Assembly (NCBI GenBank): GCA_020724805.1
Contig: DYGI01000002.1
Coordinates: 23,582-87,581, forward strand
Direction of reading: 5' to 3'
Origin: Candidatus Microgenomatus sp.
Lineage (GTDB): Bacteria > Patescibacteriota > Minisyncoccia > UBA6257 > GWB1-50-10
Length of the DNA stretch: 64,000 nucleotides
This document shows positions 7,774 through 53,010 of the stretch, one piece after another (position 1 is the first letter of the stretch; each line of letters opens with the position of its first letter). Under the pieces are notes generated by a model. That model saw only the letters and a list, made by a program, of their open reading frames with translations, was not told the origin of the DNA and did not search any database. The position numbers and the translations under genes are program-made.

Positions 7774-9450
7774 CTACCTAAGCAGGAGCATCTTCTTCGT
7801 CTGGACGAATCCATTCGCCTCCAGCCGATAGAAGTACACTCCGCTCGGCAATCCTGATGCGTCCCACGTGACGCGGTGGGTCCCCCTCTCGAAAACATCC
7901 TCGGCGAGTATCGATACTTCGATGCCAAGAATGCTTGTTACCGAAAGGCGGACACGTTCCCTCGTCGGTATGGCGAACTCGATCGTGGTCGCAGGGTTGA
8001 AGGGGTTCGGGTAGTTCTGTGAAAGCGCGAACGTTTTCGGAACTTCCGTCTCCTCGACCTTTACTACACGATCAACGCGATATTCAGGCGAATCTACGCT
8101 GTCTGTCGCGCCGTGGATATCGGTGGCGACAAGGCGGAACTGGAAGGTATGGTCGTGCAGGGCGTACGGTATCGTTCCCCACACCTCGCTCTTTGTGGAG
8201 TCTACCGAAAGCCACGAGGGACTCTTGGCGGAATCGAGCCTTACCGTGACTGGGTCGCCATCAGTATCAAAGGCGAAGTATGTTCTTTTGAAGAACGTCC
8301 CTCCGTACGTCACGGTGTCGCCAGGAGAATAAAGGAGAATCGGGCTGTGGTTTGCCGGTTTGGAAGAAAGAATGCCTCTATATATTCCCTTCCATGTTCC
8401 GACGTATACCGCCGAGTCCTTCATTACGACCGACTGGACGCTTTCTCCTGGGAGACCTAAGAGCTCCCACGTCGAACCATCATCGGTTGACCGATAGAGA
8501 CCTCCATTGCCCATTTCTTGGCACGAGAAGACACTATTGTCGGCACCGAGAACCAGGCTCCAAACCTTCACGTTCGATTTCACCACGTGCCACGTTGCGC
8601 CGTAGTCAGTCGAGCGGTAGATGTTATTGGTCTTACTAAACGGTGGCTCGCCTGGCGGAGCATTGTACAAGAGTCCGCTAGCAAGAAGGTAGTTGTTTGG
8701 GAGTTTAACAAGTGTGGTAATTGATGCTCCCAGAGTGATTCCACTCGAGGATCGTGTCCAACTATCCCCATTGTCCGTGGAACGGTACACCCCGTTCGGT
8801 AGGAATTCGATTCCTCCTGGTCCTACTGTGATGTATGATGTGTCACCGATGAATGTTAGGGATCTGAACTCTTGCCGGTCGGGACCGTGACCACTATCTC
8901 CTGCGTGGGGATTGTCAGGGATTCCGTTTGTGAGCGTGTCCCACTTTACGCCCCGGTCAGTGGAGCGGAAGAGTCCTCGCTCTGTCGCGAAGAAGAAACC
9001 GCCAGTGCTCGGATTGACGCCAAGCTCAAAGCCCCATCTTGTAGCAGGTAACCCTACGCGAGCGCCACTCATTTTTTCCCACGTGTCGCCATCGTCAGTT
9101 GACCGATGAAGTCCGTAGGGAAAACCCGCTACATAAATGTATCCGGAGTCGTCCACCGCGAAGTTCCACCCCTCGCTGTCATAAAATCCACGACTCGGCC
9201 CCACTTCTACCCATGTTTTACCGTTGTCGCGCGATTCCCAAAGCCCTGATGTGTTGGTGAATGGAATTATGCCTGCAAGGATATGTCCTCGCTTGTTTAC
9301 CATAAGCGCTCTCACATTTATGTCCCAGTTGTTCAGTACCTGCTCGAACGCGATGGTGTCAGTACTCTTTGATAAGCTCTGTCCCTCCGCCACGAAGTGG
9401 GGGACGGACGCGGCGATCAGAATCGCCAAATATTTCGTCATGCGTTTCAT
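7774..9450 (-). CDS. BNR/Asp-box repeat beta-propeller protein (sialidase/Ycf48-like) with a T9SS (Por) C-terminal sorting domain
   Basis: Six SxDxGxTW Asp-boxes (SRDNGKTW, STDDGDTW, STDRGVKW, STDNGDSW, STDYGATW, STDDGSTW). Sec signal peptide. The C-terminus ...ALSQNYPNPFNPATTIEF...GVYFYRLEANGFVQTKKMLLLR matches the T9SS type-A CTD. The ATG at 9450 is preceded by AAAGGAG 8 nt upstream. GC is visibly lower than in neighbouring genes. Confidence 0.8.
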   Translation of the reverse strand: MKRMTKYLAILIAASVPHFVAEGQSLSKSTDTIAFEQVLNNWDINVRALMVNKRGHILAGIIPFTNTSGLWESRDNGKTWVEVGPSRGFYDSEGWNFAVDDSGYIYVAGFPYGLHRSTDDGDTWEKMSGARVGLPATRWGFELGVNPSTGGFFFATERGLFRSTDRGVKWDTLTNGIPDNPHAGDSGHGPDRQEFRSLTFIGDTSYITVGPGGIEFLPNGVYRSTDNGDSWTRSSSGITLGASITTLVKLPNNYLLASGLLYNAPPGEPPFSKTNNIYRSTDYGATWHVVKSNVKVWSLVLGADNSVFSCQEMGNGGLYRSTDDGSTWELLGLPGESVQSVVMKDSAVYVGTWKGIYRGILSSKPANHSPILLYSPGDTVTYGGTFFKRTYFAFDTDGDPVTVRLDSAKSPSWLSVDSTKSEVWGTIPYALHDHTFQFRLVATDIHGATDSVDSPEYRVDRVVKVEETEVPKTFALSQNYPNPFNPATTIEFAIPTRERVRLSVTSILGIEVSILAEDVFERGTHRVTWDASGLPSGVYFYRLEANGFVQTKKMLLLR

Positions 9451-9603
9451 CCCGCACACTCCTTTCCTTCCGTTCAGTTCAGTGATTTGTGATTGTTAAT
9501 ATTGCCCCTGTATTATACCAAATTATACAAAAAAGTCAAATTTTATGCGGGTTTTGGAGGAAATAATGTTTGTGGATAAGTTTTCATGAGAAGATACCAG
9601 AAT

Positions 9604-10186: not shown

Positions 10187-10255
10187 TTGCTCATATACCC
10201 CATCCGTATCCGAAAGGATATAGATGGGGTTTTTCTTTTTGGGGGCGGGGAGGAT

Positions 10256-11500
10256 ATGCTGATTCGTATGGACGCGAAAAAACTTTGGAAAAAGATGCCG
10301 GAGACGCCCGGCGTGTACCTCATGCGCGATGCGCGTGGCGTACTCCTTTATATAGGCAAGGCCGCGAACTTGCGCCGAAGGGTGCAAAGCTATTTCACGC
10401 GCCCGCACGATGCGCGCATTTCAAAACTTGTCACGCTCATCAGGAAAATTGACCATAAAAAGACCGAAACAGCGCTTGAGGCGCTCATAGTGGAAGCGGC
10501 GCTCATCAAAAAATTTCAGCCTCCCTACAACGTACAGGAAAAGGACGACACAAGCTTTCTCTACGTTGTTTTTACCAAAGAAAAATTTCCGCGTCTAATA
10601 TTGACCCGCGGCAAGGAGGTACGAAAATCGCGCGGCGACATATTCGGGCCGTTCATCCAAGGGGGGAGCGTGCGCGAGGCGCTCCGCATGCTCCGGCGGA
10701 TTTTCCCGTGGAGCATCCACCCTTCGGCTGAGCTTAGGGCAGGTAAGTGGAAGCGGCCGTGCTTTGAATACGAGCTCGGGCTTTGCCCCGGGACGTGCGT
10801 GGGCGCGGCGGACCCGAAAGAATATGCGGCGAACATCCGCCACCTGAAGCAGCTTTTTCAGGGAAAGAGGAAGGCGATACTTCGCGAACTGGAACGGGCG
10901 ATGAAAGAAGCGGCGAAGCGGGAGGAATTTGAAAAAGCAGCCGTCTATCGGAAGCAGTTATTTGCGTTGAAGCACGTTCAGGATATCGCGCTCATCAAGG
11001 ACAGTGAATTTGCTCTTCCCGGCGTACCGATCAAGGCGTTGCGTATCGAGGGATACGATGTCTCGAACATTTCAGGCACGTCCGCGACTGGCAGTATGGT
11101 GGTGTTCCGGGGCGACCAACCGGCGAAAGACGAATATCGCCTTTTTAAGATTCACTCACTTGATACGCCGAACGACGTGGGGATGCTCCGCGAGATATTG
11201 ACGCGGCGGTTCAAAAACCACTGGCCGTTGCCGGACCTCATTCTGATAGACGGAGGAAAAGGACAGGTGAATGCGGCGCGCGCCGCGATGAAAGACGCAG
11301 GACTTGCGATTCCTATCGTGGGGCTCGCGAAGGGACCAACGCGGAAGCGGACGGATGTGATAGGCCCTTCGACGGGCTCAGGACAGGGGAGATTACCGAA
11401 AGGTGTATCGCTGCGCACGCTCGTGCGCGTACGCGACGAAGCACACCGCTTCGCGAGAAGTTTCCATATTCGTCTGCGCAGTAAACATATATGGAGATAA
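10256..11500 (+). CDS. uvrC: Excinuclease ABC subunit C (UvrC), short form lacking the C-terminal (HhH)2 domain
   Basis: The GIY-YIG N-terminus (MDAKKLWKKMPETPGVYLMRDARGVLLYIGKAANLRRRVQSYF) matches UvrC. UvrB-interaction and RNaseH-like nuclease regions are present. The protein ends at about 415 aa. I moved the start to the ATG at 10256; the ORF-track start at 10187 sits inside a 5' hairpin. Confidence 0.8.
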   Translation: MLIRMDAKKLWKKMPETPGVYLMRDARGVLLYIGKAANLRRRVQSYFTRPHDARISKLVTLIRKIDHKKTETALEALIVEAALIKKFQPPYNVQEKDDTSFLYVVFTKEKFPRLILTRGKEVRKSRGDIFGPFIQGGSVREALRMLRRIFPWSIHPSAELRAGKWKRPCFEYELGLCPGTCVGAADPKEYAANIRHLKQLFQGKRKAILRELERAMKEAAKREEFEKAAVYRKQLFALKHVQDIALIKDSEFALPGVPIKALRIEGYDVSNISGTSATGSMVVFRGDQPAKDEYRLFKIHSLDTPNDVGMLREILTRRFKNHWPLPDLILIDGGKGQVNAARAAMKDAGLAIPIVGLAKGPTRKRTDVIGPSTGSGQGRLPKGVSLRTLVRVRDEAHRFARSFHIRLRSKHIWR

Positions 11501-11534: not shown

Positions 11535-11580
11535 ACATGTGGATTGAGCCCTCGGACGCACAACGAAAAACCGCGTATTG

Positions 11581-11934
11581 CTACGCGGCTTCGGAAAGTT
11601 CTTCCGGTCCTGCGGAACGCTCCAAACCGTATTTTTCCTCGGCGCTTCGCGCGGCATCCTTTGCCACGTCGGTGAAATCCTGGAATGCCGCCGAGCAGAA
11701 TTCTATTTCGTCCACAAAGCGCGCAGCAATCTCGCGTGCAAACTCCTCACCTTCCTCGGCCTTCGCGACACCGATTGCGCGGTCGATGAATGCCGCAAGG
11801 TCCTGTTCCACGAGACCTCGCTCGCCGCGGCGGAGTTGTTCCAGATGTTTTTTGGTGAATTCACCAAGAAGCACCGACACGAGCTCTCCCGCTACCTCCT
11901 TCGAGGTTTTCGATTCCGATTCCGGCGCGTGCAT
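11581..11934 (-). CDS. Hypothetical acidic, helical protein
   Basis: Open to 12027 from a GTG. The best start is the ATG at 11934 (MHAPESESK...), with AAGGA 9 nt upstream. Alternative + strand frames translate to low-complexity S/R-rich sequence. Confidence 0.45.
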   Translation of the reverse strand: MHAPESESKTSKEVAGELVSVLLGEFTKKHLEQLRRGERGLVEQDLAAFIDRAIGVAKAEEGEEFAREIAARFVDEIEFCSAAFQDFTDVAKDAARSAEEKYGLERSAGPEELSEAA

Positions 11935-12030
11935 TTGCTCCATTCCTTTCATATCGCCATTTTCATCCCGCGCGTATAAAAAAACAAGCCCGGTACCACC
12001 ACCCTTGTGGTGGTACCGGGCACGCACACA

Positions 12031-12312
12031 TCAGCTCCCATAAAGACGGAATATGCGATTCCGTACGCGTCGCAAGCCGTCTGCACCGTCCTCCTGGTAT
12101 GCTTCGCCGCACTCGGTGCAGAGACCCGGAGTGAGTGCGCTTTCCACGCGTGTGGATGTATGTTCGCGGCAGTAGTCCCGTCCGCAGTTCGTGCACGGAG
12201 CGTCACCGAACTGCTTGTCGAACATGTGGTATTTCTTGCCGATCGTGCATCGCGCCGTACCGACCTTCTCGGGCAGTACGACGACGTCTCGGCTCATAGG
12301 AACATTTCTCAT
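12031..12312 (-). CDS. Hypothetical Cys-rich (zinc-ribbon-like) small protein
   Basis: 93 aa from the ATG at 12312, which has AAGGAGG 5 nt upstream. Six Cys lie in CxxC-like pairs (CTNCGRDYC, CTECG). Confidence 0.5.
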   Translation of the reverse strand: MRNVPMSRDVVVLPEKVGTARCTIGKKYHMFDKQFGDAPCTNCGRDYCREHTSTRVESALTPGLCTECGEAYQEDGADGLRRVRNRIFRLYGS

Positions 12313-12414
12313 GCACACCTCCTTCAATGAGTGAATAAATACTTCTATTCGGAGAATATCGCGTGCGGCAAGCGTTGTAAAGGCGATGAGCGATAGCGTG
12401 GTATACTAACCCTA

Positions 12415-19704: not shown

Positions 19705-20724
19705 ATGAAATCGATAGACCGACTTTTGGAAGATTGTTTCGCGATGCTTTCCCCCAAGCAGCGCCGTGTTGTGGTTGGGCGGTTTGGCTTGAAAGGAGGC
19801 GCGAAATCAACCCTCCAGGAGATCGGTGATGAGCTTGGGGTGACCCGTGAAAGGGTGCGCCAGATCGAAGCGCAGACGATGAAAAAGCTCTCGCCGATGA
19901 TCCGCGCCGAGGCGGAGTCGCTTATAACGGTGGCGACGCGTCATTTGGGGAGCGTGGGAGGAGTGCGCCGTGACGACAATTTCATGGATGATCTTCGCGA
20001 AACGGTTCTTAAGTCGGACCGGGACGTGAAAAATTTCGCCGAGAAAGTACGCTTTGTGCTTCTCGCGGCGGGAGAGCCGCGCTATGCGCCTGCCACCGAC
20101 GAAATGCATGCCTATTGGGCAACGAACGCGGCGGCGGAAAAAAAGTTCGCGGATTTTGTGAAAAAGGTAACCGATTTCTTCAAGAAAGCGGGCACCAAAA
20201 AGATCGTTGACGAAAAAGCCCACCTCGCGCTCTGCAAAGACATGGTGACGTGCCACTGGCTTTCAATCCCGAAACACATCGGCACGAACGTGTTCGGCGA
20301 CGTGGGGCTCCGCGAATGGGCGGAGATCGAACCGAAAACGGTGCGTGACAAAGCGTACCTCGTGCTCAAAAAGCACGAGAAGCCACTTCACTTTGAGGAC
20401 ATTGCGAAGCACATCGCGAAATACAAGCTTGCCGCGAAGCCCGCGCACGTGCAGACGGTGCACAACGAGCTCATCAAAGACGAACGATTCGTACTCGTGG
20501 GCCGCGGCATCTATGCCTTGGAGGAACATGGATACGAGCGGGGGACGGTGCGCGAGGTCATCGCGAAACTTTTGAAGCGGAACGGACCGATGGACGCAAA
20601 AAGGGTGCTTGCACTCGTGAACGAGCAGCGTTTTCTGAAGCAGAACACGGTGCTTCTTGCGCTCCAAAACCGCAAGTATTTCAACCGCTTGGACGATGGG
20701 CGGTACCGCGTAAAAGAAGCGTAA
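19705..20724 (+). CDS. Sigma-70 region-4 HTH protein with a C-terminal HARE-HTH-like (RNAP delta N-terminal-like) winged helix
   Basis: 339 aa. The N-terminus ...KSTLQEIGDELGVTRERVRQIEAQTMKKL matches sigma-70 region 4. The C-terminus has a ...FVLVGRGIYALEE... motif typical of HARE-HTH. There are no sigma regions 2 or 3. Confidence 0.55.
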   Translation: MKSIDRLLEDCFAMLSPKQRRVVVGRFGLKGGAKSTLQEIGDELGVTRERVRQIEAQTMKKLSPMIRAEAESLITVATRHLGSVGGVRRDDNFMDDLRETVLKSDRDVKNFAEKVRFVLLAAGEPRYAPATDEMHAYWATNAAAEKKFADFVKKVTDFFKKAGTKKIVDEKAHLALCKDMVTCHWLSIPKHIGTNVFGDVGLREWAEIEPKTVRDKAYLVLKKHEKPLHFEDIAKHIAKYKLAAKPAHVQTVHNELIKDERFVLVGRGIYALEEHGYERGTVREVIAKLLKRNGPMDAKRVLALVNEQRFLKQNTVLLALQNRKYFNRLDDGRYRVKEA

Positions 20725-20800: not shown

Positions 20801-22192
20801 ATGTTGAAGGAGGTGTTGAACCACATCACGGAATTTTTCTCCGAATTCTTCAAAAAAGAAGAGGTGTGGATGCTGCTTCTCTTTGTGGGGCTCGGAGTAT
20901 GGGTTATCTATGCGTTTTTCGAGACGATATGGGAGATACTCAGGAATTTCTTCCTCTACGCCTGGCCCCTTCTCCTCTTCTTCGTGTTGCTCGGAATATT
21001 CGAGTCGCTGTGGCTTTTTGTGCGCCAGGAGCGCTTCAAGGAGAAGGATGAATTCGTGCTCCTTGAGCTCAAAATCCCGCGTGAGGTGAAAAAAAGCCCG
21101 CAAGGTATGGAAGAAGTGCTCGCCGCGATGCATTCACTTCGGAATTCTCCCGGAACGTTCAAGGAAAAATATATTGATGGCGAGGTGCCGCGGTGGTTTT
21201 CGCTGGAGCTTGTGAGCATTGGAGGCGTGGTGCGGTTTTTTGTGCGCGTGAATACAAAACAGCGCCGCGTGGTGGAAGCGGCGTTCTATTCCTATTACCC
21301 GGACATTGTGGTCGAGGAGGTGGAGGACTACATCGGCATGTTTCCCAAAAGCGGCGACGAGATGAAGGAGCGGCGGATGAAAATGTGGGGGACCGAACTC
21401 GTGCTCGCGAAGGATGCGGCATACCCGATAAAAACGTACGACAAGTTCGAGAACATCGCGGAGGAAAAGCAATTCGACCCCATTTCCACGTTTCTTGAGA
21501 TTTTAGGAAGAGTACCGAGCGGCGAAGTGGTAGGAATCCAAATACTCATCGCGCCGGCGCCGGGAGATTGGCAAGAGGAGTTCGAAGAACTTTTGAACGA
21601 GCTCAAAACGCCAAAAACCATTTCCGTGGAAGAGGACGAAGGAAGCAAGGAGCTTACGGTGGCGCGCTCTCCTGGACACACCGACGTGTTGAAAGCGGTG
21701 GAAGAAAATTTCTCAAAACCCGCGTTCCAAACGCTCATACGGCTCATGTATATCGCGCCCGAAGATTCGTTTGCGAAAGGGCCTCCGGCACATGGCGCGC
21801 TCGGCGCATTCAGCCAATTCACCGCGCTCGACCTGAACAGTTTTAGGCCCAACAAACTTATGACGACGAAGGCCGACGTATGGTCGAAGCCGTATGTGGC
21901 GCCGAAGGTCCGCCTTTCATATCGGGAACAACGCCTTCTTTGGAATTACCGCAGGCGTGAAGTGCCCCCCGAAACATGGATGGGGAAGTTTATGACGTCA
22001 TTTCTCTATCACTGGAATTTCGGTTCGACGCGATTTCTTATGACCACCAAAGGGATTGCGACTCTGTTCCACCCGCCGACCGCGGTGGTTTTGACAGTCC
22101 CACACGTGAAGCGCACCGAGAGCCGCCGCGCCAGCCCTCCCGCAGGTCTCGCCATTTTCGGCGAGGAGGAGGAACTAGGACGTTTCAACTAG
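20801..22192 (+). CDS. Hypothetical membrane protein (2 N-terminal TM helices plus an about 390-aa soluble domain)
   Basis: 463 aa. An upstream GGGGTACAATAGAG -10-like box at 20779-20792 matches the motif before 43738. First gene of a 3-gene module. Confidence 0.6.
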   Translation: MLKEVLNHITEFFSEFFKKEEVWMLLLFVGLGVWVIYAFFETIWEILRNFFLYAWPLLLFFVLLGIFESLWLFVRQERFKEKDEFVLLELKIPREVKKSPQGMEEVLAAMHSLRNSPGTFKEKYIDGEVPRWFSLELVSIGGVVRFFVRVNTKQRRVVEAAFYSYYPDIVVEEVEDYIGMFPKSGDEMKERRMKMWGTELVLAKDAAYPIKTYDKFENIAEEKQFDPISTFLEILGRVPSGEVVGIQILIAPAPGDWQEEFEELLNELKTPKTISVEEDEGSKELTVARSPGHTDVLKAVEENFSKPAFQTLIRLMYIAPEDSFAKGPPAHGALGAFSQFTALDLNSFRPNKLMTTKADVWSKPYVAPKVRLSYREQRLLWNYRRREVPPETWMGKFMTSFLYHWNFGSTRFLMTTKGIATLFHPPTAVVLTVPHVKRTESRRASPPAGLAIFGEEEELGRFN

Positions 22193-22199
22193 CATTTTC

Positions 22200-22736
22200 A
22201 TGCCAAACATTCTCGCGCCGATCGAAAATCTGGTAACTTCCGTCATTGAATTCCCTTGGATGGACATGCTCATTGCGGTTCGGATATTCTTCATATTCTT
22301 CGATGTGGTGCTACTCCTCGTGCTTTTTTGGCTGTTCACGGAGGCGTATGAGCTGCGTCCCCATTTTTTACGACGTGCTTCCGAAGCGGCGCGCGTGCCC
22401 GTGCTCGACCAAGAAAAGTTTTCCGCGCGATGGGCGCGGATTGTGGAAAAAGCATTCCAATCGCCGCCTCAATCGCTGGTGCTTGGCGTCATCGAAGCCG
22501 ATAAATGCGTGGATGACGCGCTCAAAGGGTTGGGACTGGAAGGAGAGCATATGGCGGATCGACTCGAGCAGATTCGTGCGGAAGATTATCCTTCTCTCGA
22601 TCGACTTTGGCGCGCGCATCGGGTGCGGAACGAATTGGTGCATACCCCCGATTTCGGCATCGACGCCGAGGACGCCAAAGATATCCTTGCCATCTACGAA
22701 AAGTTTCTCAAGGAGCTCGGCGCCCTTCCTTCATAG
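22200..22736 (+). CDS. Small single-TM protein with a C-terminal helical domain carrying a HEPN-like Rx4H motif
   Basis: 178 aa. TM at about residues 22-45. Reads ...LWRAHRVRNELVHTPDFG... Confidence 0.5.
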   Translation: MPNILAPIENLVTSVIEFPWMDMLIAVRIFFIFFDVVLLLVLFWLFTEAYELRPHFLRRASEAARVPVLDQEKFSARWARIVEKAFQSPPQSLVLGVIEADKCVDDALKGLGLEGEHMADRLEQIRAEDYPSLDRLWRAHRVRNELVHTPDFGIDAEDAKDILAIYEKFLKELGALPS

Positions 22737-22742
22737 CCGATT

Positions 22743-24074
22743 ATGATACGCGCGGGGAGGATACAAATCATAAAATATGCCCCGCCGCCACCTGAGCTCC
22801 CCATGCTCGGGAAGGCGCGGCCCGAGGATTGTTCATTTATCGGCCGCACCAACTATGTTACGGGTATCGAGGAAAAGAAGTTCGTGTTCGGATTGAAGCG
22901 CCACGACCGGCGCCACCACGTGTATCTCATAGGGAAAAGCGGCATTGGGAAGACAAAAATGCTCGAGCTTCTCGTGCGACAGGATATTGCACACGGGTAT
23001 GGGGTAGCGGTGGTGGACGCCCAGGGCGATCTTGTGGATTCACTCATCGATTTTATCCCCGAAGAAAGGGTTGCGGACGTATGCGTGTTCGACCCGTCCG
23101 ATACCGAGCACCCGCTCGCGTGGAATCCACTCTCGGGAGTTCCGGCGGAGTTCAAGCATTCACTCACCCAGAGTTTTATTGAGGTGATGGAAAAGGAATT
23201 CGGCACCCACTGGAATCCTCGCATCGAGCACCTCTTTCGTTTTGTGTGCCTCGCGCTTCTCGACTATCCTCACGCCACCATGCGCGGGATGATATTGCTT
23301 CTCACTGATGCCGCATATCGCGAAGAAGTGAAGAAGCATGTCAAAGACGATATCGTGCGGAAATTCTTTACCAACGAATTCGAGGGATGGGTGCGGCAAT
23401 ACGAGAGCGATGCCATCGTTCCTTTAGTGAACAAACTGGCGCAATTCGTGCTCCACCCGCTCCTTCGGACCGTGTTCGAGCGCGAGGAGCATAAAGTGGA
23501 TGTGGGCGCGATAATGGAACGCGGGGGCATTTTTCTCGCCAATCTTGCGCGGGGGAAGCTGGGAGACCAGAACGCGAATTTTCTCGGCGCGCTTCTTATC
23601 GCGAAAATGAAGCAGGCAGGTATGGCGCGCGCAAACCTTTCCGAATCGGCGAAAAAAGATTTCTATCTCTACCTCGATGAATTCCACGGGTGTGCGACCG
23701 AGACTTTTGAAAACCTCCTTTCCGAGGCGCGCAAGTTCGGGATGTGTCTTACGCTTTGCCACCAGTATTTGGAGCAGCTCGCCCCTCGACTGCAGGCCGC
23801 CATTCTCGGCAATGTGGGGACCATCATTGTATTTCGGGCGAGTGGAGAAGATGCGGCACGCCTTGAGGTGGAAATGAACCCCGTGTTCAAAGCGAAAGAT
23901 ATGATAAATCTCGGCACGCAGGAGTTTTACATCAAAATGACGATCGACGGAGAAACCAATGACCCGTTTTCCGCGGAAACGCTCAAGGTGCTTCCCTCAC
24001 CGCGGGGTTCGTTTCGTTCCCACGTAATCGCGGCGTCGCGCGCTCGATACGCCGCTAAGGTTTCGTCGTCCTAA
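22743..24074 (+). CDS. P-loop ATPase of the TraD/TraG/VirD4-HerA/FtsK (AAA-like, DUF87-type) clade; coupling-protein-like, without TM segments
   Basis: 443 aa. Walker A is HVYLIGKSGIGKTKM. ...VVDAQGDL...FDPSDTEHPLAWNPL is a TrwB/VirD4-like nucleotide-binding stretch. Walker B is YLYLDEFHG, followed by ARKFGMCLTLCHQYLEQL. Confidence 0.6.
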   Translation: MIRAGRIQIIKYAPPPPELPMLGKARPEDCSFIGRTNYVTGIEEKKFVFGLKRHDRRHHVYLIGKSGIGKTKMLELLVRQDIAHGYGVAVVDAQGDLVDSLIDFIPEERVADVCVFDPSDTEHPLAWNPLSGVPAEFKHSLTQSFIEVMEKEFGTHWNPRIEHLFRFVCLALLDYPHATMRGMILLLTDAAYREEVKKHVKDDIVRKFFTNEFEGWVRQYESDAIVPLVNKLAQFVLHPLLRTVFEREEHKVDVGAIMERGGIFLANLARGKLGDQNANFLGALLIAKMKQAGMARANLSESAKKDFYLYLDEFHGCATETFENLLSEARKFGMCLTLCHQYLEQLAPRLQAAILGNVGTIIVFRASGEDAARLEVEMNPVFKAKDMINLGTQEFYIKMTIDGETNDPFSAETLKVLPSPRGSFRSHVIAASRARYAAKVSSS

Positions 24075-24092
24075 TCGGGTATAATGTGACCG

Positions 24093-25553
24093 ATGACAGA
24101 GTCGAAGAACAGAAAAAGAATCTCCGATATCGTACCCCGTCGAAAGACCGCCGGTCGTCCGGAGATGAGGGATCGCAAGGAAGAAGTGGTAACCACGTCG
24201 AAGCCTACGAAACGTGTGGCGAAAAAAACGCCGCCACCCCCAAAAGCAGAGCCCGTGAAGGCTATAGAAAAGGCGGAAGAACCGGATTTTTTTTCGGTCA
24301 CGGTGAGCGAAACCCGCATTGATGCGGGCGCCCCCCCTATTTTTACAGGAGCTTCGGAAGAAAGTGCTGCTTATTATGAAGAGGAGGCACCCAAGGTGGT
24401 GCGCCATCGGAAGTTTCGCCGGATGCCCCGCGTGGCCCTCGTGATTCTTGCGGTGCTTGTGGCGGGGGGCGTAGGAGCATGGTTCCTGCTTCCCAAAGCG
24501 GTGGTGGCGCTCACGATGAAAAAATATCCGACGGAGTTTTCGAAGACCATCGTGGTCGCCGCAGACCGCACTTCAATTAATGTACCCGGCGCACTCGTAA
24601 TTCCCGGTGAGGCTCTGGAAGCGCGTGCAAACCTCACGCTCCCATTCACCGCGGAAGCAACCGAGACGGTTTCCGCGAAAGCCACGGGAATTCTTACGGT
24701 GTACAACTCGTATAGCTCGGCGCCACAAGCGCTTGTGCGGAATACCCGTTTTGAATCTCCCGACAAAAAAATATTCCGATTGGAGAGACAGGTGACCGTG
24801 CCCGGCGCAAAAGTGGAGGGAGGCAAGGTGACGCCATCGTCCATCGAAGTGACGGTAGTGGCGGAAGAAGCGGGAGAATCTTACAATCTTCCCCCGTCAT
24901 CGGGATGGCGTATTCCCGGATTCGCCGGAGGTCCGCGGTATGAAGGATTTTATGCGGAAGCGAAGCAGGGGATGAAGGGAGGATTCACCGGAGAACGCGC
25001 CAAACCTTCTGTGGCCGAACTCGCCAATGCGCGGGCAGAACTTATCGATGCGCTCACCGACGCCCTGGAAAGCCAGTTTCTCATCATTCTTTCTGATAGA
25101 TTCACCGCACTCCCGGGAAGCAGACGCATTACACTTGTGGCAGAAAAAGTGGAAGCGGACGCTGAAAACACCCACACTTTTCATCTGTTCGGTGAAGCGG
25201 TGATGAAACAGATAGTATTTGAAGAACCGACGCTCAAAGACGCACTCATCAACGAAGCGAGCCGCGCACTTCCAAAAGAGCTTGCGGCGAAGGAATTTTC
25301 CTACGCCCTCGGCACTTCCACAGTGGATTTCGCGAAAAATACGCTTACAATCCCCGCGCAAGGGAAAGGAGTGTTCACTGAACCTTTTGATGTGGATGCA
25401 TTCCGCGCGGCAATGGCGGGGAAGGAAGAAGCCGAACTCAAAGCGGCGGTGTTCGCCATTCCCGGCGTGGAAGTCGCGACCGTGTCGCTCTCGCCGTTCT
25501 TCGTGCGCTCGGTACCAGAAAATATAGAAAAGATAGAAGTGACGGTGGAATAG
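24093..25553 (+). CDS. Hypothetical bitopic membrane protein (basic Lys/Pro-rich N-terminal tail, one TM, about 350-aa extracytoplasmic domain)
   Basis: 486 aa. The TM is RVALVILAVLVAGGVGAWFLL. Leaderless: TATAAT at 24080-24085, then the ATG at 24093. Confidence 0.5.
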   Translation: MTESKNRKRISDIVPRRKTAGRPEMRDRKEEVVTTSKPTKRVAKKTPPPPKAEPVKAIEKAEEPDFFSVTVSETRIDAGAPPIFTGASEESAAYYEEEAPKVVRHRKFRRMPRVALVILAVLVAGGVGAWFLLPKAVVALTMKKYPTEFSKTIVVAADRTSINVPGALVIPGEALEARANLTLPFTAEATETVSAKATGILTVYNSYSSAPQALVRNTRFESPDKKIFRLERQVTVPGAKVEGGKVTPSSIEVTVVAEEAGESYNLPPSSGWRIPGFAGGPRYEGFYAEAKQGMKGGFTGERAKPSVAELANARAELIDALTDALESQFLIILSDRFTALPGSRRITLVAEKVEADAENTHTFHLFGEAVMKQIVFEEPTLKDALINEASRALPKELAAKEFSYALGTSTVDFAKNTLTIPAQGKGVFTEPFDVDAFRAAMAGKEEAELKAAVFAIPGVEVATVSLSPFFVRSVPENIEKIEVTVE

Positions 25554-26308: not shown

Positions 26309-26337
26309 TTGACACTCTCTGCCATTTTCCTTATATT
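26309..26337 (+). promoter_or_regulatory. Sigma-70 promoter of the infA-rpmJ-rpsM... operon
   Basis: TTGACA, 17 nt, TATATT. Confidence 0.55.
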
Positions 26338-26718: not shown

Positions 26719-27102
26719 ATGCGTGTTGCGGGAGTAAACATTCCAGATGAAAAGAAAGTAACCATCGCCCTCACCTATCTCTACGGGATAGGTCGTGCGC
26801 GCGCCGTGGAAATAGTGACGACCGCGAAAGTTTCACCCGAAAAGCGCGCGAAGGAACTTTCACTGGAAGAGGTGAATCGCATCCAGTCCGCAATCGAGAA
26901 AACCACGAAGATCGAGGGAGAATTGCGTCAGGTGGTGAAGCAAAACATCGCGCGTCTCAAGGACATCAAGGCCTATCGTGGCGTTCGTCACCTTCGGAAA
27001 CTTCCCGTGCGTGGTCAGCGCACCAAGACGAACTCGCGTACCGTGCGAGGCAACGTGAGAAAGACCGCAGGAAGCGGCAAGCGTAAGGTGGAACTCAAAT
27101 AA
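26719..27102 (+). CDS. rpsM: 30S ribosomal protein S13
   Basis: MRVAGVNIPDEKKVTIALTYLYGIGRARA... plus gene order. Confidence 0.95.
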   Translation: MRVAGVNIPDEKKVTIALTYLYGIGRARAVEIVTTAKVSPEKRAKELSLEEVNRIQSAIEKTTKIEGELRQVVKQNIARLKDIKAYRGVRHLRKLPVRGQRTKTNSRTVRGNVRKTAGSGKRKVELK

Positions 27103-27103
27103 T

Positions 27104-27556
27104 ATGGGAAAGAAAAAAGTTGCGGCAAAAAGCGAGGCAGAGCTCGTGAAGGAATCAGAAGCGGTGGAAGCCACCGCGGCGAAAGAAGCCGCGAAAAGCG
27201 TTTCCACGCGTGTCGCGCATGGGCGCATCTACGTGAATGCTTCGTACAATAACACTATGATTACCGTGACGGATGACCAAGGGGGCGTGGTGACGTGGAT
27301 GTCTTCGGGCTCCATCGGATTTTCGGGACCCAAGAAGGCAACGCCTTTCGCCGCGTCCAAGGTGGCTGAGGCCATCGCGGAGAAGGTGAAGAAATCGGGA
27401 CCCGTGAATGTCGAAATATTTGTGCGCGGCATCGGCAAGGGAAGAGACTCCGCCATTCGCACTCTCGCCGCAAAAGGATTCACCGTGGAGTCGGTAAAGG
27501 ATATCACTCCTATCCCGCACAACGGACCGCGCCCGCGGAAGACGCGAAGGGTATAA
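27104..27556 (+). CDS. rpsK: 30S ribosomal protein S11
   Basis: ...RVAHGRIYVNASYNNTMITVTDDQGGVVTWMSSGSIGFSGPKKATPFAA... Confidence 0.95.
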   Translation: MGKKKVAAKSEAELVKESEAVEATAAKEAAKSVSTRVAHGRIYVNASYNNTMITVTDDQGGVVTWMSSGSIGFSGPKKATPFAASKVAEAIAEKVKKSGPVNVEIFVRGIGKGRDSAIRTLAAKGFTVESVKDITPIPHNGPRPRKTRRV

Positions 27557-27565
27557 TACATTGCC

Positions 27566-28171
27566 ATGGCAGTCATACACGCAAAAGAAAAAAAGGAACG
27601 TTCGCTCGGCGCAAAACTTTTTTTGAAAGGTGATCGTTGTAATTCGCCGAAGTGCGTTACCGTGCGGCGACCAGAGCGACCCGGACAGCACAAAGATGCG
27701 CGGCGCCAGCTCTCCGAATATGGACGGCAGCTCCAAGAGAAGCAGCGCATCCAAGTGTATTTCGGGCTTACGAACCGCCAAATGGAAAAATATTTTTCCG
27801 CCGATTCGCCTATCGCTATCGCAAACGCGCTTGAGCGTCGTTTGGACCACGCGGTGTTCGCGCTCGGGCTTGCAAAATCCCCGCGTATTGCCCGCCAACT
27901 CATCTCACATGGCCACATCGTGGTAAATGGGAGGAAGGTCACTACCGCATCCTATGAGGTTCGCGTGGGAGACCTAATTGCGATTCGCCCCGAATCGAGG
28001 ACGAGCAAGCTTTTTGAGGGGCTCGGCGCGCGCCTCAAAGAGTACTCGTGCCCGGGGTGGTTTGCGCTCGATGCGGAAAAATTCGAGGGAAAATGCGTGA
28101 AACTTCCGAGCGAAGACGACCACCAGTTCCCATTCGAAATTTCGCTCGCGAGCCAGTTCTACGACCGATAA
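27566..28171 (+). CDS. rpsD: 30S ribosomal protein S4
   Basis: 201 aa. N-terminal Zn-ribbon-like region and an S4 domain (...[23 protein letters not shown]...). Confidence 0.95.
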
Positions 28172-28214
28172 TATTGATTCATTCGGGGAAAGTTGGTACT
28201 ATAAGAACCGCGTT

Positions 28215-28976
28215 ATGAAATACTCACACCTCAGCGACACCATTTCTATAAAGACCGTTTCCGAGAAAGGGAATGTGGGCGTATTCCATATGGAAGGCCT
28301 GTACACCGGATACGGCCACACGCTCGGTACCGCGTTCCGCCGGACGCTTCTTTCTTCGCTTCCCGGCGCGGCAATCACCCAAATAAAGATAAAAGGAGTG
28401 GACCATGAATTTTCCACCGTTCCCGGCATGCTTGAGGACATAGTGGAATTTACCCTGAACTTGAAAAAAGTTCGGTTTCATTTCTTTGCGGACGAACCAC
28501 AGGTCCTCACCCTCAAGGTGAAGGGCGAACGTGTGGTGACCTCCGCGGATATCGAGGCGACCACGCTTGCAAAAGTGGTGAATCCCAACCTCCACCTCGC
28601 GACCCTTACGAAAAAAACCGCCGAGCTTGATATGGAGCTCACCGTTGAAAAGGGCTTGGGGTATGTGCCCGCGGAGGCGCGTCGCCTTGAGCGGCTCCCG
28701 GTAGGAACTGTGGTGCTCGACGCGATTTTTTCGCCTGTGGTCAGAGTGGCCGCAACGGTAGAGAACATGCGCGTAGGGGACCGTACCGACTTCAACCGTC
28801 TCATTTTGGAAGTGGAGACCGACGGCTCCATCTCTCCTTCCGAAGCGCTCCATAAAGCAGGGAATATTCTTAAGGATCACTTTGAAAAAACAGCCGCAGT
28901 CGAGGTAAAGCCGCTCGCGGAAGCACCCAGTGAAGAGAAGCGCGAAACGAAGCGGAAGAAAGTAACGAAGGAGTAA
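28215..28976 (+). CDS. rpoA: DNA-directed RNA polymerase alpha subunit, N-terminal domain only (no alpha-CTD)
   Basis: 253 aa. The alpha-NTD dimerisation and assembly fold is present. The protein ends in a Lys/Glu-rich tail, and rplQ starts 3 nt later. Confidence 0.9.
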   Translation: MKYSHLSDTISIKTVSEKGNVGVFHMEGLYTGYGHTLGTAFRRTLLSSLPGAAITQIKIKGVDHEFSTVPGMLEDIVEFTLNLKKVRFHFFADEPQVLTLKVKGERVVTSADIEATTLAKVVNPNLHLATLTKKTAELDMELTVEKGLGYVPAEARRLERLPVGTVVLDAIFSPVVRVAATVENMRVGDRTDFNRLILEVETDGSISPSEALHKAGNILKDHFEKTAAVEVKPLAEAPSEEKRETKRKKVTKE

Positions 28977-28978
28977 CC

Positions 28979-29329
28979 GTGCGGCACGCGAACAAGGGAA
29001 GAAAATTCGGCCGCGAGCGAGGGCAGCGTCGCGCGTTCCTTCGGAATCTCGCGGGGCAGCTTATCACCCGTGAGCGTATCACGACCACCGAAGCACGGGC
29101 GAAGGAGCTCCGCATGGTGGTGGAAAGGCTTGTGACGTACGGGAAAAAACAGAATGTGGCGGCGTTGCGCATGCTTGTGCAGAAATTGCCGAAAGCGGCG
29201 GCGTACAAGGCGTACCACGAGCTTGGGCCGCGCTACGCATCCCGTGCCGGCGGATACACGCGCGTGATAAAACAGGCTCGTGCGCGGAAAACCGACGGCG
29301 CGAAAATGGCGGTCATTGAATTTGTATAA
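28979..29329 (+). CDS. rplQ: 50S ribosomal protein L17
   Basis: MRHANKGRKFGRERGQRRAFLRNLAGQLITRERITTTEARAKELR... Confidence 0.95.
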   Translation: MRHANKGRKFGRERGQRRAFLRNLAGQLITRERITTTEARAKELRMVVERLVTYGKKQNVAALRMLVQKLPKAAAYKAYHELGPRYASRAGGYTRVIKQARARKTDGAKMAVIEFV

Positions 29330-29341
29330 TCACCAATCGCT

Positions 29342-51325: not shown

Positions 51326-51473
51326 ATTGACGAACGCCTAGAATTCGGTATTATTGAGGTGTCCGTAGACAGCAGGTGGGGAATACCCATAAATCCTGCC
51401 GAGGGAACGCCAATTTCGGCGTGTACCACTACGGCTCAAAGGTCGTGGTGTTTCTTTTAAAGAAACGAGCCAA
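51326..51473 (+). promoter_or_regulatory. Untranslated leader of rplJ-rplL (putative L10 autoregulatory leader)
   Basis: A 148-nt structured gap upstream of rplJ. The position is consistent with the L10 leader, but no motif was verified. Confidence 0.25.
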
Positions 51474-51965
51474 ATGAAAACAAAAGCACAAAAGAAAGAG
51501 CAGATAGAAAGCGGTGTGAAGGGGATGGCGAAGAGCGAAACCCTGGTCCTCGCGGATTTCACCGGCGTGCCTACGAAGGAACTGAATGCGTTCCGGAAAA
51601 CGCTTCGCGGAATGGGAGCGGCGTTCACAGTGGTGAAGAAACGACTCTTTAAGCTGATGCTTAAAGAGCAGGGGATAGATTTCGACCCAAAGACCTTGGA
51701 TGGTCAGCTCGGGGTCGTATTCTCGCCGAAGGACCTCGTGGAGACCGCGGGCGTGACCTATAAATTTTCGAAGGGTAAGGAAGCGTTCAAGATATTGGGC
51801 GGCTTCAATTTGAAAGATAAACAATTCCTCGAAGGTGTGGATGTGGTGCGCTATGGCGCGCTCCCGCCGCGGGAAGTTCTGTTGGGCCAGCTCGTGGGCA
51901 TGCTTACGGTTCCTATCCGGCAATTCATGACCGTGTTGAACGAAAAAGCGAAAAAGTCGAATTAA
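51474..51965 (+). CDS. rplJ: 50S ribosomal protein L10
   Basis: 163 aa, followed by rplL. Confidence 0.9.
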
Positions 51966-51975
51966 AACTATTACC

Positions 51976-52341
51976 ATGGAAAAATACAACGACATCATCG
52001 AGAAGGTTGAGAAACTTACCGTGCTCGAACTCTCCGAGCTCGTGAAGGCGCTCGAAGAGAAGTTTGGCGTGTCGGCGGCCGCGATGGCGGTTGCGGGTGC
52101 AGGTGCGGGCGCGGCAGCGGCGGAGGAAAAGACCGCATGGAACGTCATCTTGAAGTCGGGCGGCGAACAAAAAATAAACGTCATCAAGGTGGTGAAGGAA
52201 GCGACGGGTCTTGGCCTCAAAGAGGCGAAGGACATCGTGGACGGCGCTCCGAAGCCGGTGAAAGAAGGTCTGAAAAAAGAAGAGGCGGAAGAGTTGAAGA
52301 AAAAACTCGAAGAGGCCGGCGCAACGGTCGAGCTCCAATAG
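51976..52341 (+). CDS. rplL: 50S ribosomal protein L7/L12
   Basis: 121 aa with an Ala-rich hinge. The C-terminal domain reads ...[28 protein letters not shown]... Confidence 0.95.
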
Positions 52342-52360
52342 TAAAATTTCCGCATTCACA

Positions 52361-52938: not shown

Positions 52939-53010
52939 GCGCGTTTAGCTCAGTGGTAGAGCGCTTCGTTCACATCGAAGAGGTCGCTGGTTCGATCCCA
53001 GCAACGCGCA
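52939..53010 (+). tRNA. tRNA-Val (anticodon CAC)
   Basis: GCGCGTT acceptor, D arm TAGCTCAGTGGTAGAGC, anticodon loop TTCACAT, T arm GCTGGTTCGATCCCAGC, acceptor AACGCGC plus A. No encoded CCA. Confidence 0.9.

What the first reader, a model, noticed from the sequence alone, without database searches (positions are those of the whole stretch)
28215..28979. RNA polymerase alpha subunit encoded without the C-terminal domain
rpoA is 253 aa. It ends in a Lys/Glu-rich tail straight after the NTD, and rplQ starts 3 nt later, so there is no room for an alpha-CTD of about 80 aa and no frameshifted remnant. The alpha-CTD mediates UP-element contacts and class I activator contacts. Its absence fits a stripped-down transcription apparatus, alongside the standalone sigma region 4 protein at 19705 and the prevalence of extended -10, leaderless promoters in the window.
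Basis: partly seen in the sequence, partly recalled or inferred. Interest (0 to 1): 0.5.

Follow-up and report, generated by a model that had tools for sequence, protein, structure and literature searches.

The report
RNA polymerase alpha lacking C-terminal domain
This ultra-small (Candidate Phyla Radiation, Jorgensenbacteria-like) bacterium, like its whole lineage, makes an RNA polymerase alpha subunit that ends after the assembly domain in a short lysine-rich tail and lacks the usual DNA- and activator-binding domain. The feature is real, but it has already been noted in one sentence for Parcubacteria.

Summary
ORF 28215-28976 (+) encodes a 253-aa RpoA with only the two alpha N-terminal-domain Pfam families. 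It stops at TAA 28974-28976, and rplQ starts at GTG 28979. No alpha-CTD is detectable in any frame of the 64-kb window.

It is not an artefact. All 120 closest database homologues (72-92% identity, on contigs up to 729 kb) are 239-262 aa and NTD-only, as are 24 related GTDB species genomes. In a sample of 80 GTDB genomes, 45 lack the CTD. Patescibacterial lineages with and without it are interleaved, which implies at least two independent losses.

A profile search for stand-alone alpha-CTD proteins found only 28 short hits. The six I inspected were five assembly fragments and one weak non-CPR hit.

One paper (PMC8321222) already states in a sentence that Parcubacteria lack the alpha-CTD, so the core finding is known.

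Possibly new: the disordered tail ends in a conserved poly-lysine patch. CTD-bearing relatives have acidic linkers at the same position. The basic tail persists where rplQ lies about 100-230 nt away. It may give non-specific contact with upstream DNA, but this is inference.

The "standalone sigma region 4 protein" is really a conserved 339-aa sigma-r4 plus winged-helix/HARE-HTH protein.

The parts
28215..28976 (+). rpoA coding sequence, 253 aa including the stop (TAA 28974-28976); it encodes the NTD plus a tail only
   Evidence: ORF list and sequence. PF01000 and PF01193 only. TIGR02027 scores 239.6, above its cut-off of 227.8. PDB alpha subunits match at E=3e-56.
28215..28901 (+). alpha N-terminal domain (res 1-229): dimerisation and beta/beta' assembly platform
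   Evidence: The AF2 model is confident over res 10-229. Foldseek top hits are alpha NTDs, with TM 0.86 and rmsd 2.7 A. The RR motif (R42 R43), S48, G51 and others are invariant across 26 divergent CTD-less alphas.
28902..28973 (+). predicted disordered tail (res 230-253, VKPLAEAPSEEKRETKRKKVTKE) with a basic C-terminal patch; it occupies the position of the inter-domain linker
   Evidence: pLDDT is below 50 for res 230-253. In 120 homologues the tail after res 224 is 21-38 aa, 30% Lys, and the net charge of the last 12 residues is +2 to +7.
28968..28973 (+). AAGGAG Shine-Dalgarno for rplQ, embedded in the last two rpoA codons (K-E)
   Evidence: Read directly from the sequence.
28979..29329 (+). 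rplQ (L17), GTG start 2 nt after the rpoA stop; it leaves no room for a CTD
   Evidence: PF01196, E=3.6e-29; sequence.
27566..28171 (+). rpsD (S4), the gene upstream of rpoA
   Evidence: PF01479 and PF00163.
28174..28202 (+). weak candidate internal promoter in the 43-nt rpsD-rpoA spacer: TTGATT, 17 nt, TG-n-TACTAT, ending 12 nt before the rpoA ATG. It matches 8 of 12 consensus positions and is below the scanner's threshold.
   Evidence: Sequence reading; not reported by the consensus scan.
26309..26337 (+). near-consensus sigma-70-type promoter (TTGACA, 17 nt, TATATT) upstream of infA; probably the operon promoter
   Evidence: Consensus scan, 11 of 12 matches.

Best explanation
This is a genuine evolutionary deletion of the alpha C-terminal domain, fixed across a lineage of Patescibacteria (Jorgensenbacteria, Harrisonbacteria and related Paceibacteria).

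Shown:
- The gene encodes a complete, well-conserved alpha NTD, the part that dimerises and nucleates beta/beta' assembly.
- The NTD is followed by a ~25-30-aa predicted disordered tail and then, immediately, by rplQ.

Inferred from established E. coli biochemistry: an NTD-only alpha suffices for core assembly and basal, sigma-directed transcription. The polymerase therefore has no alpha-CTD for UP-element recognition or class I activator contacts. It relies on sigma contacts at -10 (often on leaderless mRNAs) and at -35.

Inferred, less certain: the poly-lysine end of the tail is a derived feature that accompanies CTD loss. It may supply sequence-independent electrostatic contact with DNA just upstream of the promoter. 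That would partly replace the non-specific DNA-binding role of the alpha-CTD.
For: The gene is an NTD-only rpoA in canonical context.

The state is lineage-wide:
- All 120 best homologues (72-92% identity; Jorgensenbacteria, Brennerbacteria, Paceibacteria and Parcubacteria MAGs; contigs up to 729 kb) are 239-262 aa with only PF01000 and PF01193.
- Among 80 GTDB species genomes, 45 lack the CTD and 35 have it.
- The window clade (window plus L001-L024, all CTD-less) has 81% bootstrap support. A CTD-bearing clade has 99%. A mixed clade of 11 CTD-less and 2 CTD-bearing members has 98%. Together these imply at least 2 losses.
- rplQ follows within about 25 nt in most CTD-less loci. Where the gap is 93-227 nt, it holds no CTD remnant.

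No separate CTD was found:
- None in the 64-kb window or in the +-2.5-kb flanks of the 45 CTD-less loci.
- A Paceibacteria-CTD profile search of 5.8 billion proteins gave only 28 short PF03118-only proteins, nearly all single-member clusters. Of the six inspected, two are contig-edge fragments, two come from error-ridden contigs, one is an N-gap artefact, and one is a weak non-CPR hit.

The tail looks derived and selected:
- The last 12 residues carry net +2 to +7 in 120 homologues.
- The median net charge of the tail is +4 in 47 CTD-less alphas, against -3 for the linker of 33 CTD-bearing relatives (Mann-Whitney p=1.5e-7; not corrected for phylogeny).
- Only 3 of 57 window ORFs end this basic, and the other two are ribosomal proteins S9 and S11.
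- The basic tail persists where rplQ lies 93-227 nt downstream.

Promoter context: 10 of 55 genes have a near-consensus -10 ending 3-14 nt before the start codon, against 1.05 expected. There is no A+T enrichment in the UP-element zone (0.43 vs 0.45 for the window).

Against: - Only 64 kb of this genome was available, so a diverged or fused alpha-CTD-like HhH module, or a second full-length rpoA paralogue elsewhere, cannot be excluded directly.
- The stand-alone-CTD search depends on shared 5-residue words and would miss a strongly diverged CTD.
- Nothing about assembly, activity or DNA contact by the tail was measured.
- A third group of CTD-less alphas (Uhrbacteria, Falkowbacteria and relatives) has short, neutral or acidic tails. 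A basic tail is therefore not obligatory after CTD loss.
- Two CTD-bearing alphas (L030, L040) have basic linkers.
- The charge comparison is not phylogenetically independent.
- The UP-zone test has n=10, and much of that zone lies in coding sequence.
- The NTD tree is a single-gene NJ tree with an unresolved backbone.
Confidence: 0.88

Rival explanations
1. Split gene or trans-acting CTD: the alpha-CTD is still present in the genome as a separate gene or fused to another protein, and is recruited to RNA polymerase non-covalently.
For: Only 64 kb of the genome could be read. Short PF03118-only proteins do exist in the database.
Against: There is no CTD in the window or near rpoA in 45 CTD-less genomes. 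The 28 stand-alone hits are almost all single-member clusters. The six inspected are contig-edge fragments (P0400, P0405), fragments on error-ridden contigs (P0421, P0397), an N-gap artefact (P0410/L082), or a weak non-CPR hit (P0424). A conserved stand-alone gene in a lineage with thousands of sequenced contigs should have produced many multi-member clusters. A free CTD would also lack its tether to the polymerase.
Confidence: 0.05
2. Artefact: a sequencing or assembly error, or a recent pseudogenising stop, truncated a normal rpoA.
For: Truncated-looking alphas caused by assembly gaps and frameshifts do occur in MAGs (L041, L047, L082).
Against: The same architecture appears in 120 independent protein clusters and 24 related species genomes from different studies. 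No CTD remnant exists in any frame. rplQ abuts the stop codon, and its SD lies inside the last rpoA codons.
Confidence: 0.01
3. The loss is real, but the lysine-rich tail is functionally neutral. It would be a leftover linker whose A-rich codons are shaped by the translation-initiation region of the overlapping or adjacent rplQ (AAG/AAA codons, AAGGAG), not by any role in DNA binding.
For: The rplQ SD lies within the last rpoA codons. In many loci rplQ overlaps or abuts the tail. A third CTD-less group has no basic tail.
Against: Basic tails persist in L001, L004, L023 and L024, where rplQ starts 93-227 nt downstream. Tightly coupled loci of the third group (L053, L057, L058) lack them. Linkers of CTD-bearing relatives are acidic, so the basic character is derived rather than left over. 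The basic stretch extends well beyond an SD-sized region: net +10 to +20 over 40-50 aa in the Nealsonbacteria/Staskawiczbacteria group.
Confidence: 0.45
4. Compensation in trans: the conserved sigma-r4 plus winged-helix/HARE-HTH protein (19705-20724) is an RNA-polymerase-associated factor that supplies the upstream DNA or activator contacts lost with the alpha-CTD.
For: The protein is conserved at 55-100% identity and ~339 aa throughout the same lineage. It has a group-1-like sigma region 4 (E=1.8e-12 to RpoS/SigA r4; ~45-50% identity in structural alignments). It also carries a HARE-HTH domain, the fold family of the Gram-positive RNAP delta subunit N-domain (own knowledge).
Against: Co-occurrence with CTD loss could not be tested, there is no interaction evidence, and the gene is not linked to rpoA. 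It may equally be an ordinary transcription factor or an anti-sigma-like competitor for the beta flap.
Confidence: 0.1

Closest known systems
Canonical bacterial RpoA (E. coli 329 aa, B. subtilis 314 aa)
   Same: The NTD is collinear and 40-45% identical, with the same fold (TM 0.86) and the same rpsD-rpoA-rplQ context. It passes the TIGR02027 cut-off.
   Different: The ~70-85-aa (HhH)2-type alpha-CTD (PF03118) is entirely absent. The chain ends in the linker region with a poly-lysine patch.
Alpha-CTD-less RpoA of Parcubacteria, mentioned in one sentence in PMC8321222 (PLoS One 2021)
   Same: It is the same phenomenon in the same broad group; the window is Jorgensenbacteria-like (81% aa identity to the alpha encoded at locus L001).
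   Different: That paper gives no data. The reference next to the sentence (PMC4508563) does not mention RNA polymerase in its main text. The distribution (45 of 80 sampled genomes, at least 2 losses) and the basic tail appear not to be described in the searchable literature.
RpoA of extremely reduced insect endosymbionts (Hodgkinia, Tremblaya)
   Same: These alphas mostly retain only the NTD, in the context of genome reduction (PMC8321222).
   Different: Those genes are eroding (partial NTDs, relaxed selection, and sometimes no rpoA at all). Here the NTD is intact and highly conserved across a large free-standing radiation.
Euglena chloroplast rpoA
   Same: Reported to lack the alpha-CTD (cited in PMC8321222; the primary paper is not held).
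   Different: It is an organellar gene of cyanobacterial descent, an unrelated loss event.
Archaeal Rpo3 (subunit D) and eukaryotic Rpb3/AC40
   Same: These are alpha-NTD homologues that act as the assembly platform without any alpha-CTD (own knowledge).
   Different: By sequence the window protein is bacterial-type. The archaeal subunit D model NF001988 scores 31.9 against a cut-off of 153. It is presumed to form a homodimer rather than a D/L-type heterodimer.
E. coli alpha truncations (alpha-235/256; Igarashi & Ishihama 1991, Hayward et al. 1991)
   Same: These NTD-only alphas assemble core enzyme and support basal but not UP-element- or class I activator-dependent transcription (as summarised in PMC8321222; details from own knowledge).
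   Different: They are laboratory constructs, not viable as the sole alpha in E. coli (own knowledge). Here the truncated form is the natural, only detectable alpha.

Membership tests
Bacterial RNA polymerase alpha subunit (RpoA, TIGR02027) | Alpha NTD: Rpb3/RpoA insert domain (PF01000) nested in the dimerisation domain (PF01193) | tested here: met
   PF01000 E=4.2e-29 (res 57-173) and PF01193 E=2.2e-22 (res 31-223). The AF2 model and Foldseek match solved alpha NTDs.
Bacterial RNA polymerase alpha subunit (RpoA, TIGR02027) | Whole-protein score above the curated equivalog cut-off | tested here: met
   TIGR02027 scores 239.6 bits against a cut-off of 227.8. The narrower PRK05182 sub-models fall below their cut-offs because the CTD part is missing.
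Bacterial RNA polymerase alpha subunit (RpoA, TIGR02027) | C-terminal domain (PF03118, RNA_pol_A_CTD) | tested here: not met
   No PF03118 hit at E<=1. No hit with the custom CTD HMM in any frame of the window. All models align only up to position ~248.
Bacterial RNA polymerase alpha subunit (RpoA, TIGR02027) | Conserved operon context rpsM-rpsK-rpsD-rpoA-rplQ | tested here: met
   S13, S11, S4, RpoA and L17 lie in order at 26719-29329. The same order holds in the 80 related loci.
Bacterial RNA polymerase alpha subunit (RpoA, TIGR02027) | Homodimerises and assembles beta and beta' | not testable with these tools
   There is only indirect support. The RR motif (R42 R43, aligned to E. coli R44/R45 by the +2 offset) and other NTD positions are invariant in 26 divergent CTD-less alphas.
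Alpha-CTD-less RpoA of Parcubacteria/Patescibacteria (as noted in PMC8321222) | Patescibacterial origin | tested here: met
   The nearest named relatives are Candidatus Jorgensenbacteria, Brennerbacteria, Harrisonbacteria, Paceibacteria and Parcubacteria MAGs.
Alpha-CTD-less RpoA of Parcubacteria/Patescibacteria (as noted in PMC8321222) | NTD-only architecture conserved among orthologues, not confined to a single genome | tested here: met
   120 of 120 closest clusters and 24 of 24 clade genomes are NTD-only.
Alpha-CTD-less RpoA of Parcubacteria/Patescibacteria (as noted in PMC8321222) | No alpha-CTD encoded anywhere else in the genome | tested here: inconclusive
   It is absent from the 64-kb window and from the flanks of 45 loci. 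The stand-alone CTD proteins inspected were fragments or non-CPR. Complete genomes could not be scanned.
Archaeal Rpo3/D - eukaryotic Rpb3 type (natively CTD-less alpha homologues) | Sequence membership in the archaeal/eukaryotic subunit D/Rpb3 family | tested here: not met
   NF001988 (subunit D) scores 31.9 bits against a cut-off of 153, matching only res 190-225.

The most novel reading that the evidence does not exclude
After the alpha-CTD was lost, at least two patescibacterial lineages independently evolved a disordered polybasic C-terminal tail on the alpha NTD. This tail would be a minimal, sequence-independent DNA anchor that replaces the non-specific upstream-DNA contacts of the alpha-CTD. 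The lineage-conserved sigma-r4/winged-helix (HARE-HTH) protein might act as an additional polymerase-associated DNA-binding factor.
Probability: 0.25. Interest if true: 0.55.

Novelty: already known. Interest (0 to 1): 0.3.

Why it matters
Textbooks and recent comparative papers treat the alpha-CTD as universal in Bacteria. PMC12531629, for example, calls it "ubiquitously present across all Bacteria".

A large, repeatedly sequenced part of the Patescibacteria does without it. These organisms therefore cannot use UP elements or class I (alpha-CTD-dependent) activation, and they provide a natural minimal bacterial RNA polymerase.

The practical consequences are modest:
- Annotation pipelines and promoter models for CPR genomes should not assume alpha-CTD functions.
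- Comparative studies of the alpha-CTD should treat these clades as true absences rather than missing data.

The charge-reversed polybasic tail is a cheap, testable hypothesis about how the loss is tolerated.

Tried and rejected
2. My first CTD HMM was contaminated and gave weak false hits inside NTDs (E of 1e-4 to 1e-7 at positions ~20-130). I rebuilt it from clean domain envelopes.
3. The listing of cluster members on 10 CTD-less representatives returned no taxon names, so I did not repeat it.
I repeated it with 10 sequences.
5. The representative-library search collapsed the whole window clade into one 50% cluster. It therefore showed breadth (about 25 further CTD-less, K-tailed clusters) but no taxonomy.
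6. Nelson & Stegen 2015 is cited next to the Parcubacteria sentence in PMC8321222, but its main text does not mention RNA polymerase.
7. Literature searches combining alpha-CTD terms with CPR, Patescibacteria, Saccharibacteria or Microgenomates terms found nothing further. The HARE-HTH plus sigma search was uninformative.
8. The apparent "split rpoA" in L082 (a 213-aa NTD ORF plus a 92-aa CTD ORF) was rejected. A run of 10 Ns with duplicated flanking sequence shows it is a scaffolding gap.
9. The idea that the poly-K tail is only a by-product of the rplQ ribosome-binding region was weakened but not excluded.
Full report
**1. The observation**

The ORF at 28215-28976 (+) runs from ATG to TAA and encodes 253 aa. 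The stop codon occupies 28974-28976. Two bases later, GTG at 28979 opens a 116-aa ORF that is ribosomal protein L17 (PF01196, E=3.6e-29). Upstream lie IF1, S13, S11 and S4, and downstream lie L13 and S9. This is the standard alpha operon.

- Pfam finds only the two alpha-NTD families: PF01000 (res 57-173) and PF01193 (res 31-223). PF03118 does not appear even at E<=1.
- Eight NCBIfam rpoA equivalog models match, but only over their first ~220-256 positions of 298-344. TIGR02027 still exceeds its cut-off.
- Against solved structures the protein aligns to residues 13-249 of the 315-aa C. thermocellum alpha and 12-248 of the 314-aa B. subtilis alpha. That is the NTD plus the inter-domain linker, ending exactly where the CTD begins.
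- An AlphaFold2 model is confident for residues 10-229 and below pLDDT 50 for 230-253. Its best structural matches are alpha NTDs (TM 0.86, rmsd 2.7 A).
- No CTD or remnant exists in any frame of the 64-kb window. A 72-position HMM that I built from 128 CTDs gives no hit at E<=1, and tblastn with three CTD probes gives only noise.

The stated end coordinate overshoots by 3 nt.

**2. The truncation is a lineage trait, not an artefact**

All 120 best homologues in a 5.8-billion-protein collection are 239-262 aa and carry only the NTD families. They are 72-92% identical to the window protein. Sources name them Candidatus Jorgensenbacteria, Brennerbacteria, Paceibacteria and Parcubacteria, and some sit on contigs of 0.3-0.73 Mb.

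A scan of GTDB species genomes returned 80 loci. I called rpoA in each and scanned all six frames with the CTD HMM.
- 45 loci lack the CTD, both in the gene and within +-2.5 kb.
- 35 loci have it. Two of these (L041, L047) are broken by N runs or frameshifts.
- In the CTD-less loci rplQ usually follows within about 25 nt. In five loci the gap is 93-227 nt and contains no CTD-like sequence.

**3. Distribution**

I built a neighbour-joining tree of the NTD (205 columns, 100 bootstraps).
- The window groups with L001-L024 (Jorgensenbacteria, Harrisonbacteria and Paceibacteria genomes). All are CTD-less, and the clade has 81% support.
- A clade of 14 CTD-bearing Paceibacteria, including Taylorbacteria, has 99% support.
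- A third clade has 98% support and mixes 11 CTD-less members (Nealsonbacteria, Staskawiczbacteria and others) with 2 CTD-bearing ones (L026, L038).
- Uhrbacteria, Falkowbacteria, Veblenbacteria, Buchananbacteria and Komeilibacteria genomes are also CTD-less.

The mixed clade excludes the window clade, so CTD-less alphas cannot be monophyletic on this gene tree. At least two independent losses are implied. The backbone is unresolved and this is a single-gene NJ tree, so the exact number is open.

In the 50%-identity representative library, about 25 further clusters among the top 150 hits are NTD plus a K-rich tail.

**4. Is the CTD encoded elsewhere?**

This could only be tested partly. Besides the window and the locus flanks, I searched the 5.8-billion-protein collection with a profile of 18 patescibacterial CTDs. 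It returned only 28 short PF03118-only proteins, nearly all in single-member clusters. I inspected six.
- P0400 and P0405 are cut by contig ends and are followed by rplQ.
- P0421 and P0397 lie on contigs where neighbouring ribosomal genes are also fragmented.
- P0410 (L082) looked like a split rpoA, but it is interrupted by a run of 10 Ns with duplicated flanks.
- P0424 is a weak hit next to MarR-type regulators in non-CPR contigs.

A conserved stand-alone CTD in a lineage this heavily sampled should have appeared as many multi-member clusters, and it did not. A strongly diverged or fused module cannot be excluded without whole genomes.

**5. The tail**

More precisely, it is a short variable spacer followed by a conserved poly-lysine end.
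- In the 120 homologues, the segment after residue 224 is 21-38 aa and 30% Lys. Its last 12 residues carry net +2 to +7, with a mean of +4.3.
- This is not simply a retained linker. In 33 CTD-bearing relatives the NTD-CTD linker has a median net charge of -3, and 31 of the 33 are at or below 0. In 47 CTD-less alphas the tail has a median of +4 (Mann-Whitney p=1.5e-7, not corrected for phylogeny).
- The Nealsonbacteria/Staskawiczbacteria group has 40-50-aa tails of net +10 to +20.
- Among 57 ORFs of the window, only RpoA and ribosomal proteins S9 and S11 end with a net charge of +5 or more.
- The AAGGAG SD of rplQ lies in the last two rpoA codons, so A-rich codons could be a by-product of translational coupling. 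However, basic tails persist in L001, L004, L023 and L024, where rplQ is 93-227 nt away. Tightly coupled loci of the Uhrbacteria/Falkowbacteria group lack them.

The Uhrbacteria/Falkowbacteria group also shows that a basic tail is not obligatory. I therefore rate the DNA-anchor idea as plausible but unproven, at about 0.25-0.3.

**6. Mechanism**

Shown: an intact alpha NTD is the only detectable alpha. The RR motif and other assembly positions are invariant across 26 divergent CTD-less alphas.

Inferred from E. coli work: the NTD alone supports alpha-dimer formation, core assembly and basal sigma-dependent transcription, while UP-element and class I activation need the CTD. PMC8321222 summarises this, and the details are from my own knowledge. 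This polymerase should therefore depend on sigma-DNA contacts alone.

The window fits this reading.
- 10 of 55 genes have a near-consensus -10 hexamer ending 3-14 nt before the start codon, against 1.05 expected from hexamer density. These are leaderless or near-leaderless mRNAs.
- The -38 to -59 zone of these promoters is not A+T-enriched: 0.43 against 0.45 for the window. This test is weak, with n=10.
- The operon has a TTGACA-17-TATATT promoter upstream of infA.
- A sub-threshold TTGATT-17-TGgTACTAT candidate sits in the rpsD-rpoA spacer.
- Strict TGn extended -10 motifs are not over-represented.

**7. The supporting claims in the finding**

The "standalone sigma region 4 protein" at 19705 is a 339-aa protein with several domains.
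- It has a group-1-like sigma region 4 at residues 13-62 (PF04545, E=1e-15; E=1.8e-12 to RpoS region 4 in the PDB).
- It has a HARE-HTH domain at residues 212-273.
- It is conserved at 55-100% identity and about 337-342 aa in the same lineage.
- Its model has pLDDT 89 and shows sigma-r4 followed by an array of winged helices.

It is a candidate polymerase-associated factor, not evidence of a stripped-down apparatus. I could not test any link to CTD loss.

**8. Comparison with what is known, and novelty**

[quoted passage not shown] It describes NTD-only alphas in Hodgkinia and Tremblaya and cites Euglena plastids. It gives no analysis for Parcubacteria. The adjacent citation (PMC4508563) does not discuss RNA polymerase in its main text.

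Other searches of the open literature found nothing more. A 2025 paper still calls the alpha-CTD ubiquitous in Bacteria.

The core finding is therefore already known, though under-appreciated. This gene is one more member, 92% identical to the nearest database protein. What seems undescribed is the patchy distribution with multiple losses and the charge-reversed polybasic tail.

**9. Verdict**

The feature is real and correctly read, and it is lineage-wide. It is of moderate-to-low interest (0.3) because it is already recorded and the instance is typical of its clade. The most novel reading still open is that the polybasic tail is a convergent minimal replacement for the non-specific DNA contacts of the alpha-CTD. 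I give that a probability of about 0.25 and an interest of about 0.55 if true.

Noticed in passing
window 19705-20724 (+): A 339-aa protein with an N-terminal group-1-like sigma-70 region 4 (res 13-62) and a HARE-HTH domain (res 212-273). Its AF2 model (pLDDT 89) shows sigma-r4 followed by an array of winged helices. It is conserved at 55-100% identity and ~339 aa across the Jorgensenbacteria/Paceibacteria lineage, and sources call it 'sigma factor-like HTH protein' or 'RNAP delta subunit'. It is a possible RNA-polymerase-associated factor. A TTGACC-17-TGgTATCGT promoter ends 6 nt before its ATG, so it is probably leaderless.
   Followed up: partly
window 10187-11500 (+): UvrC is only 437 aa. 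It has GIY-YIG, UVR and the RNase H-like endonuclease domain (ending at res 423), but no C-terminal (HhH)2 DNA-binding domain, and the next ORF (11537-12043) has no Pfam hit. This is a second case in the window of a C-terminal helix-hairpin-helix DNA-binding module being absent.
   Followed up: no
window, e.g. 1256-1261, 12402-12407, 24080-24085, 27552-27557, 29325-29330: Ten of 55 genes have a near-consensus -10 hexamer (usually preceded by G: GGGTATAAT or TGGTATACT) ending 3-14 nt before the start codon and no Shine-Dalgarno, against ~1 expected. Leaderless or near-leaderless transcription seems common, including inside the ribosomal operon (before rpsD and rplM).
   Followed up: partly
L030 and L040 (GTDB loci): Two CTD-bearing patescibacterial alphas have strongly basic NTD-CTD linkers (net +6 and +12), unlike the acidic linkers of the other 31. 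They could be intermediates in which a basic linker preceded CTD loss.
   Followed up: no
L082 3275-4279: An apparent split rpoA (213-aa NTD ORF plus 92-aa CTD ORF) in a public MAG is a scaffolding artefact: a run of 10 Ns with duplicated flanking sequence (GKDAIH / GKDAID). This is a caution for domain-loss surveys on MAGs.
   Followed up: yes
L083-L085 (gene at L083 4001-4297): A 98-aa stand-alone protein with a weak PF03118 (alpha-CTD) match recurs on 20 or more non-CPR contigs. It always lies next to a MarR-family regulator and oxidoreductase genes. Its function is unknown.
   Followed up: no
window 51345-51466 (+): An Rfam L10 leader (48.8 bits, gathering score 44) implies rplJ-rplL on the + strand just downstream. 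The 308-aa minus-strand ORF at 51429-52355 in a naive ORF map is therefore probably spurious. rpoB and rpoC do not follow within the window; tRNA-Val lies at 52939 instead.
   Followed up: no
window 20801-25553 (+): A block of ORFs without Pfam hits surrounds a TrwB/TraG-like type IV coupling protein (22743-24074). It sits directly downstream of the sigma-r4/HARE-HTH gene and may be part of the patescibacterial type IV secretion or DNA-uptake machinery.
   Followed up: no
window 3573-7175 (+) and 7774-9459 (-): Two large, probably surface or secreted proteins: a 1200-aa protein with fibronectin type III repeats, and a 561-aa protein with BNR/Sortilin repeats, an Ig-like domain and a Por_Secre_tail (T9SS-type C-terminal sorting domain). 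The sorting domain is unexpected in a CPR genome.
   Followed up: no
window 1-64000: Nearly all genes are on the + strand, and cumulative GC skew rises monotonically across the whole window. This is consistent with a single replichore with strong leading-strand gene bias.
   Followed up: no
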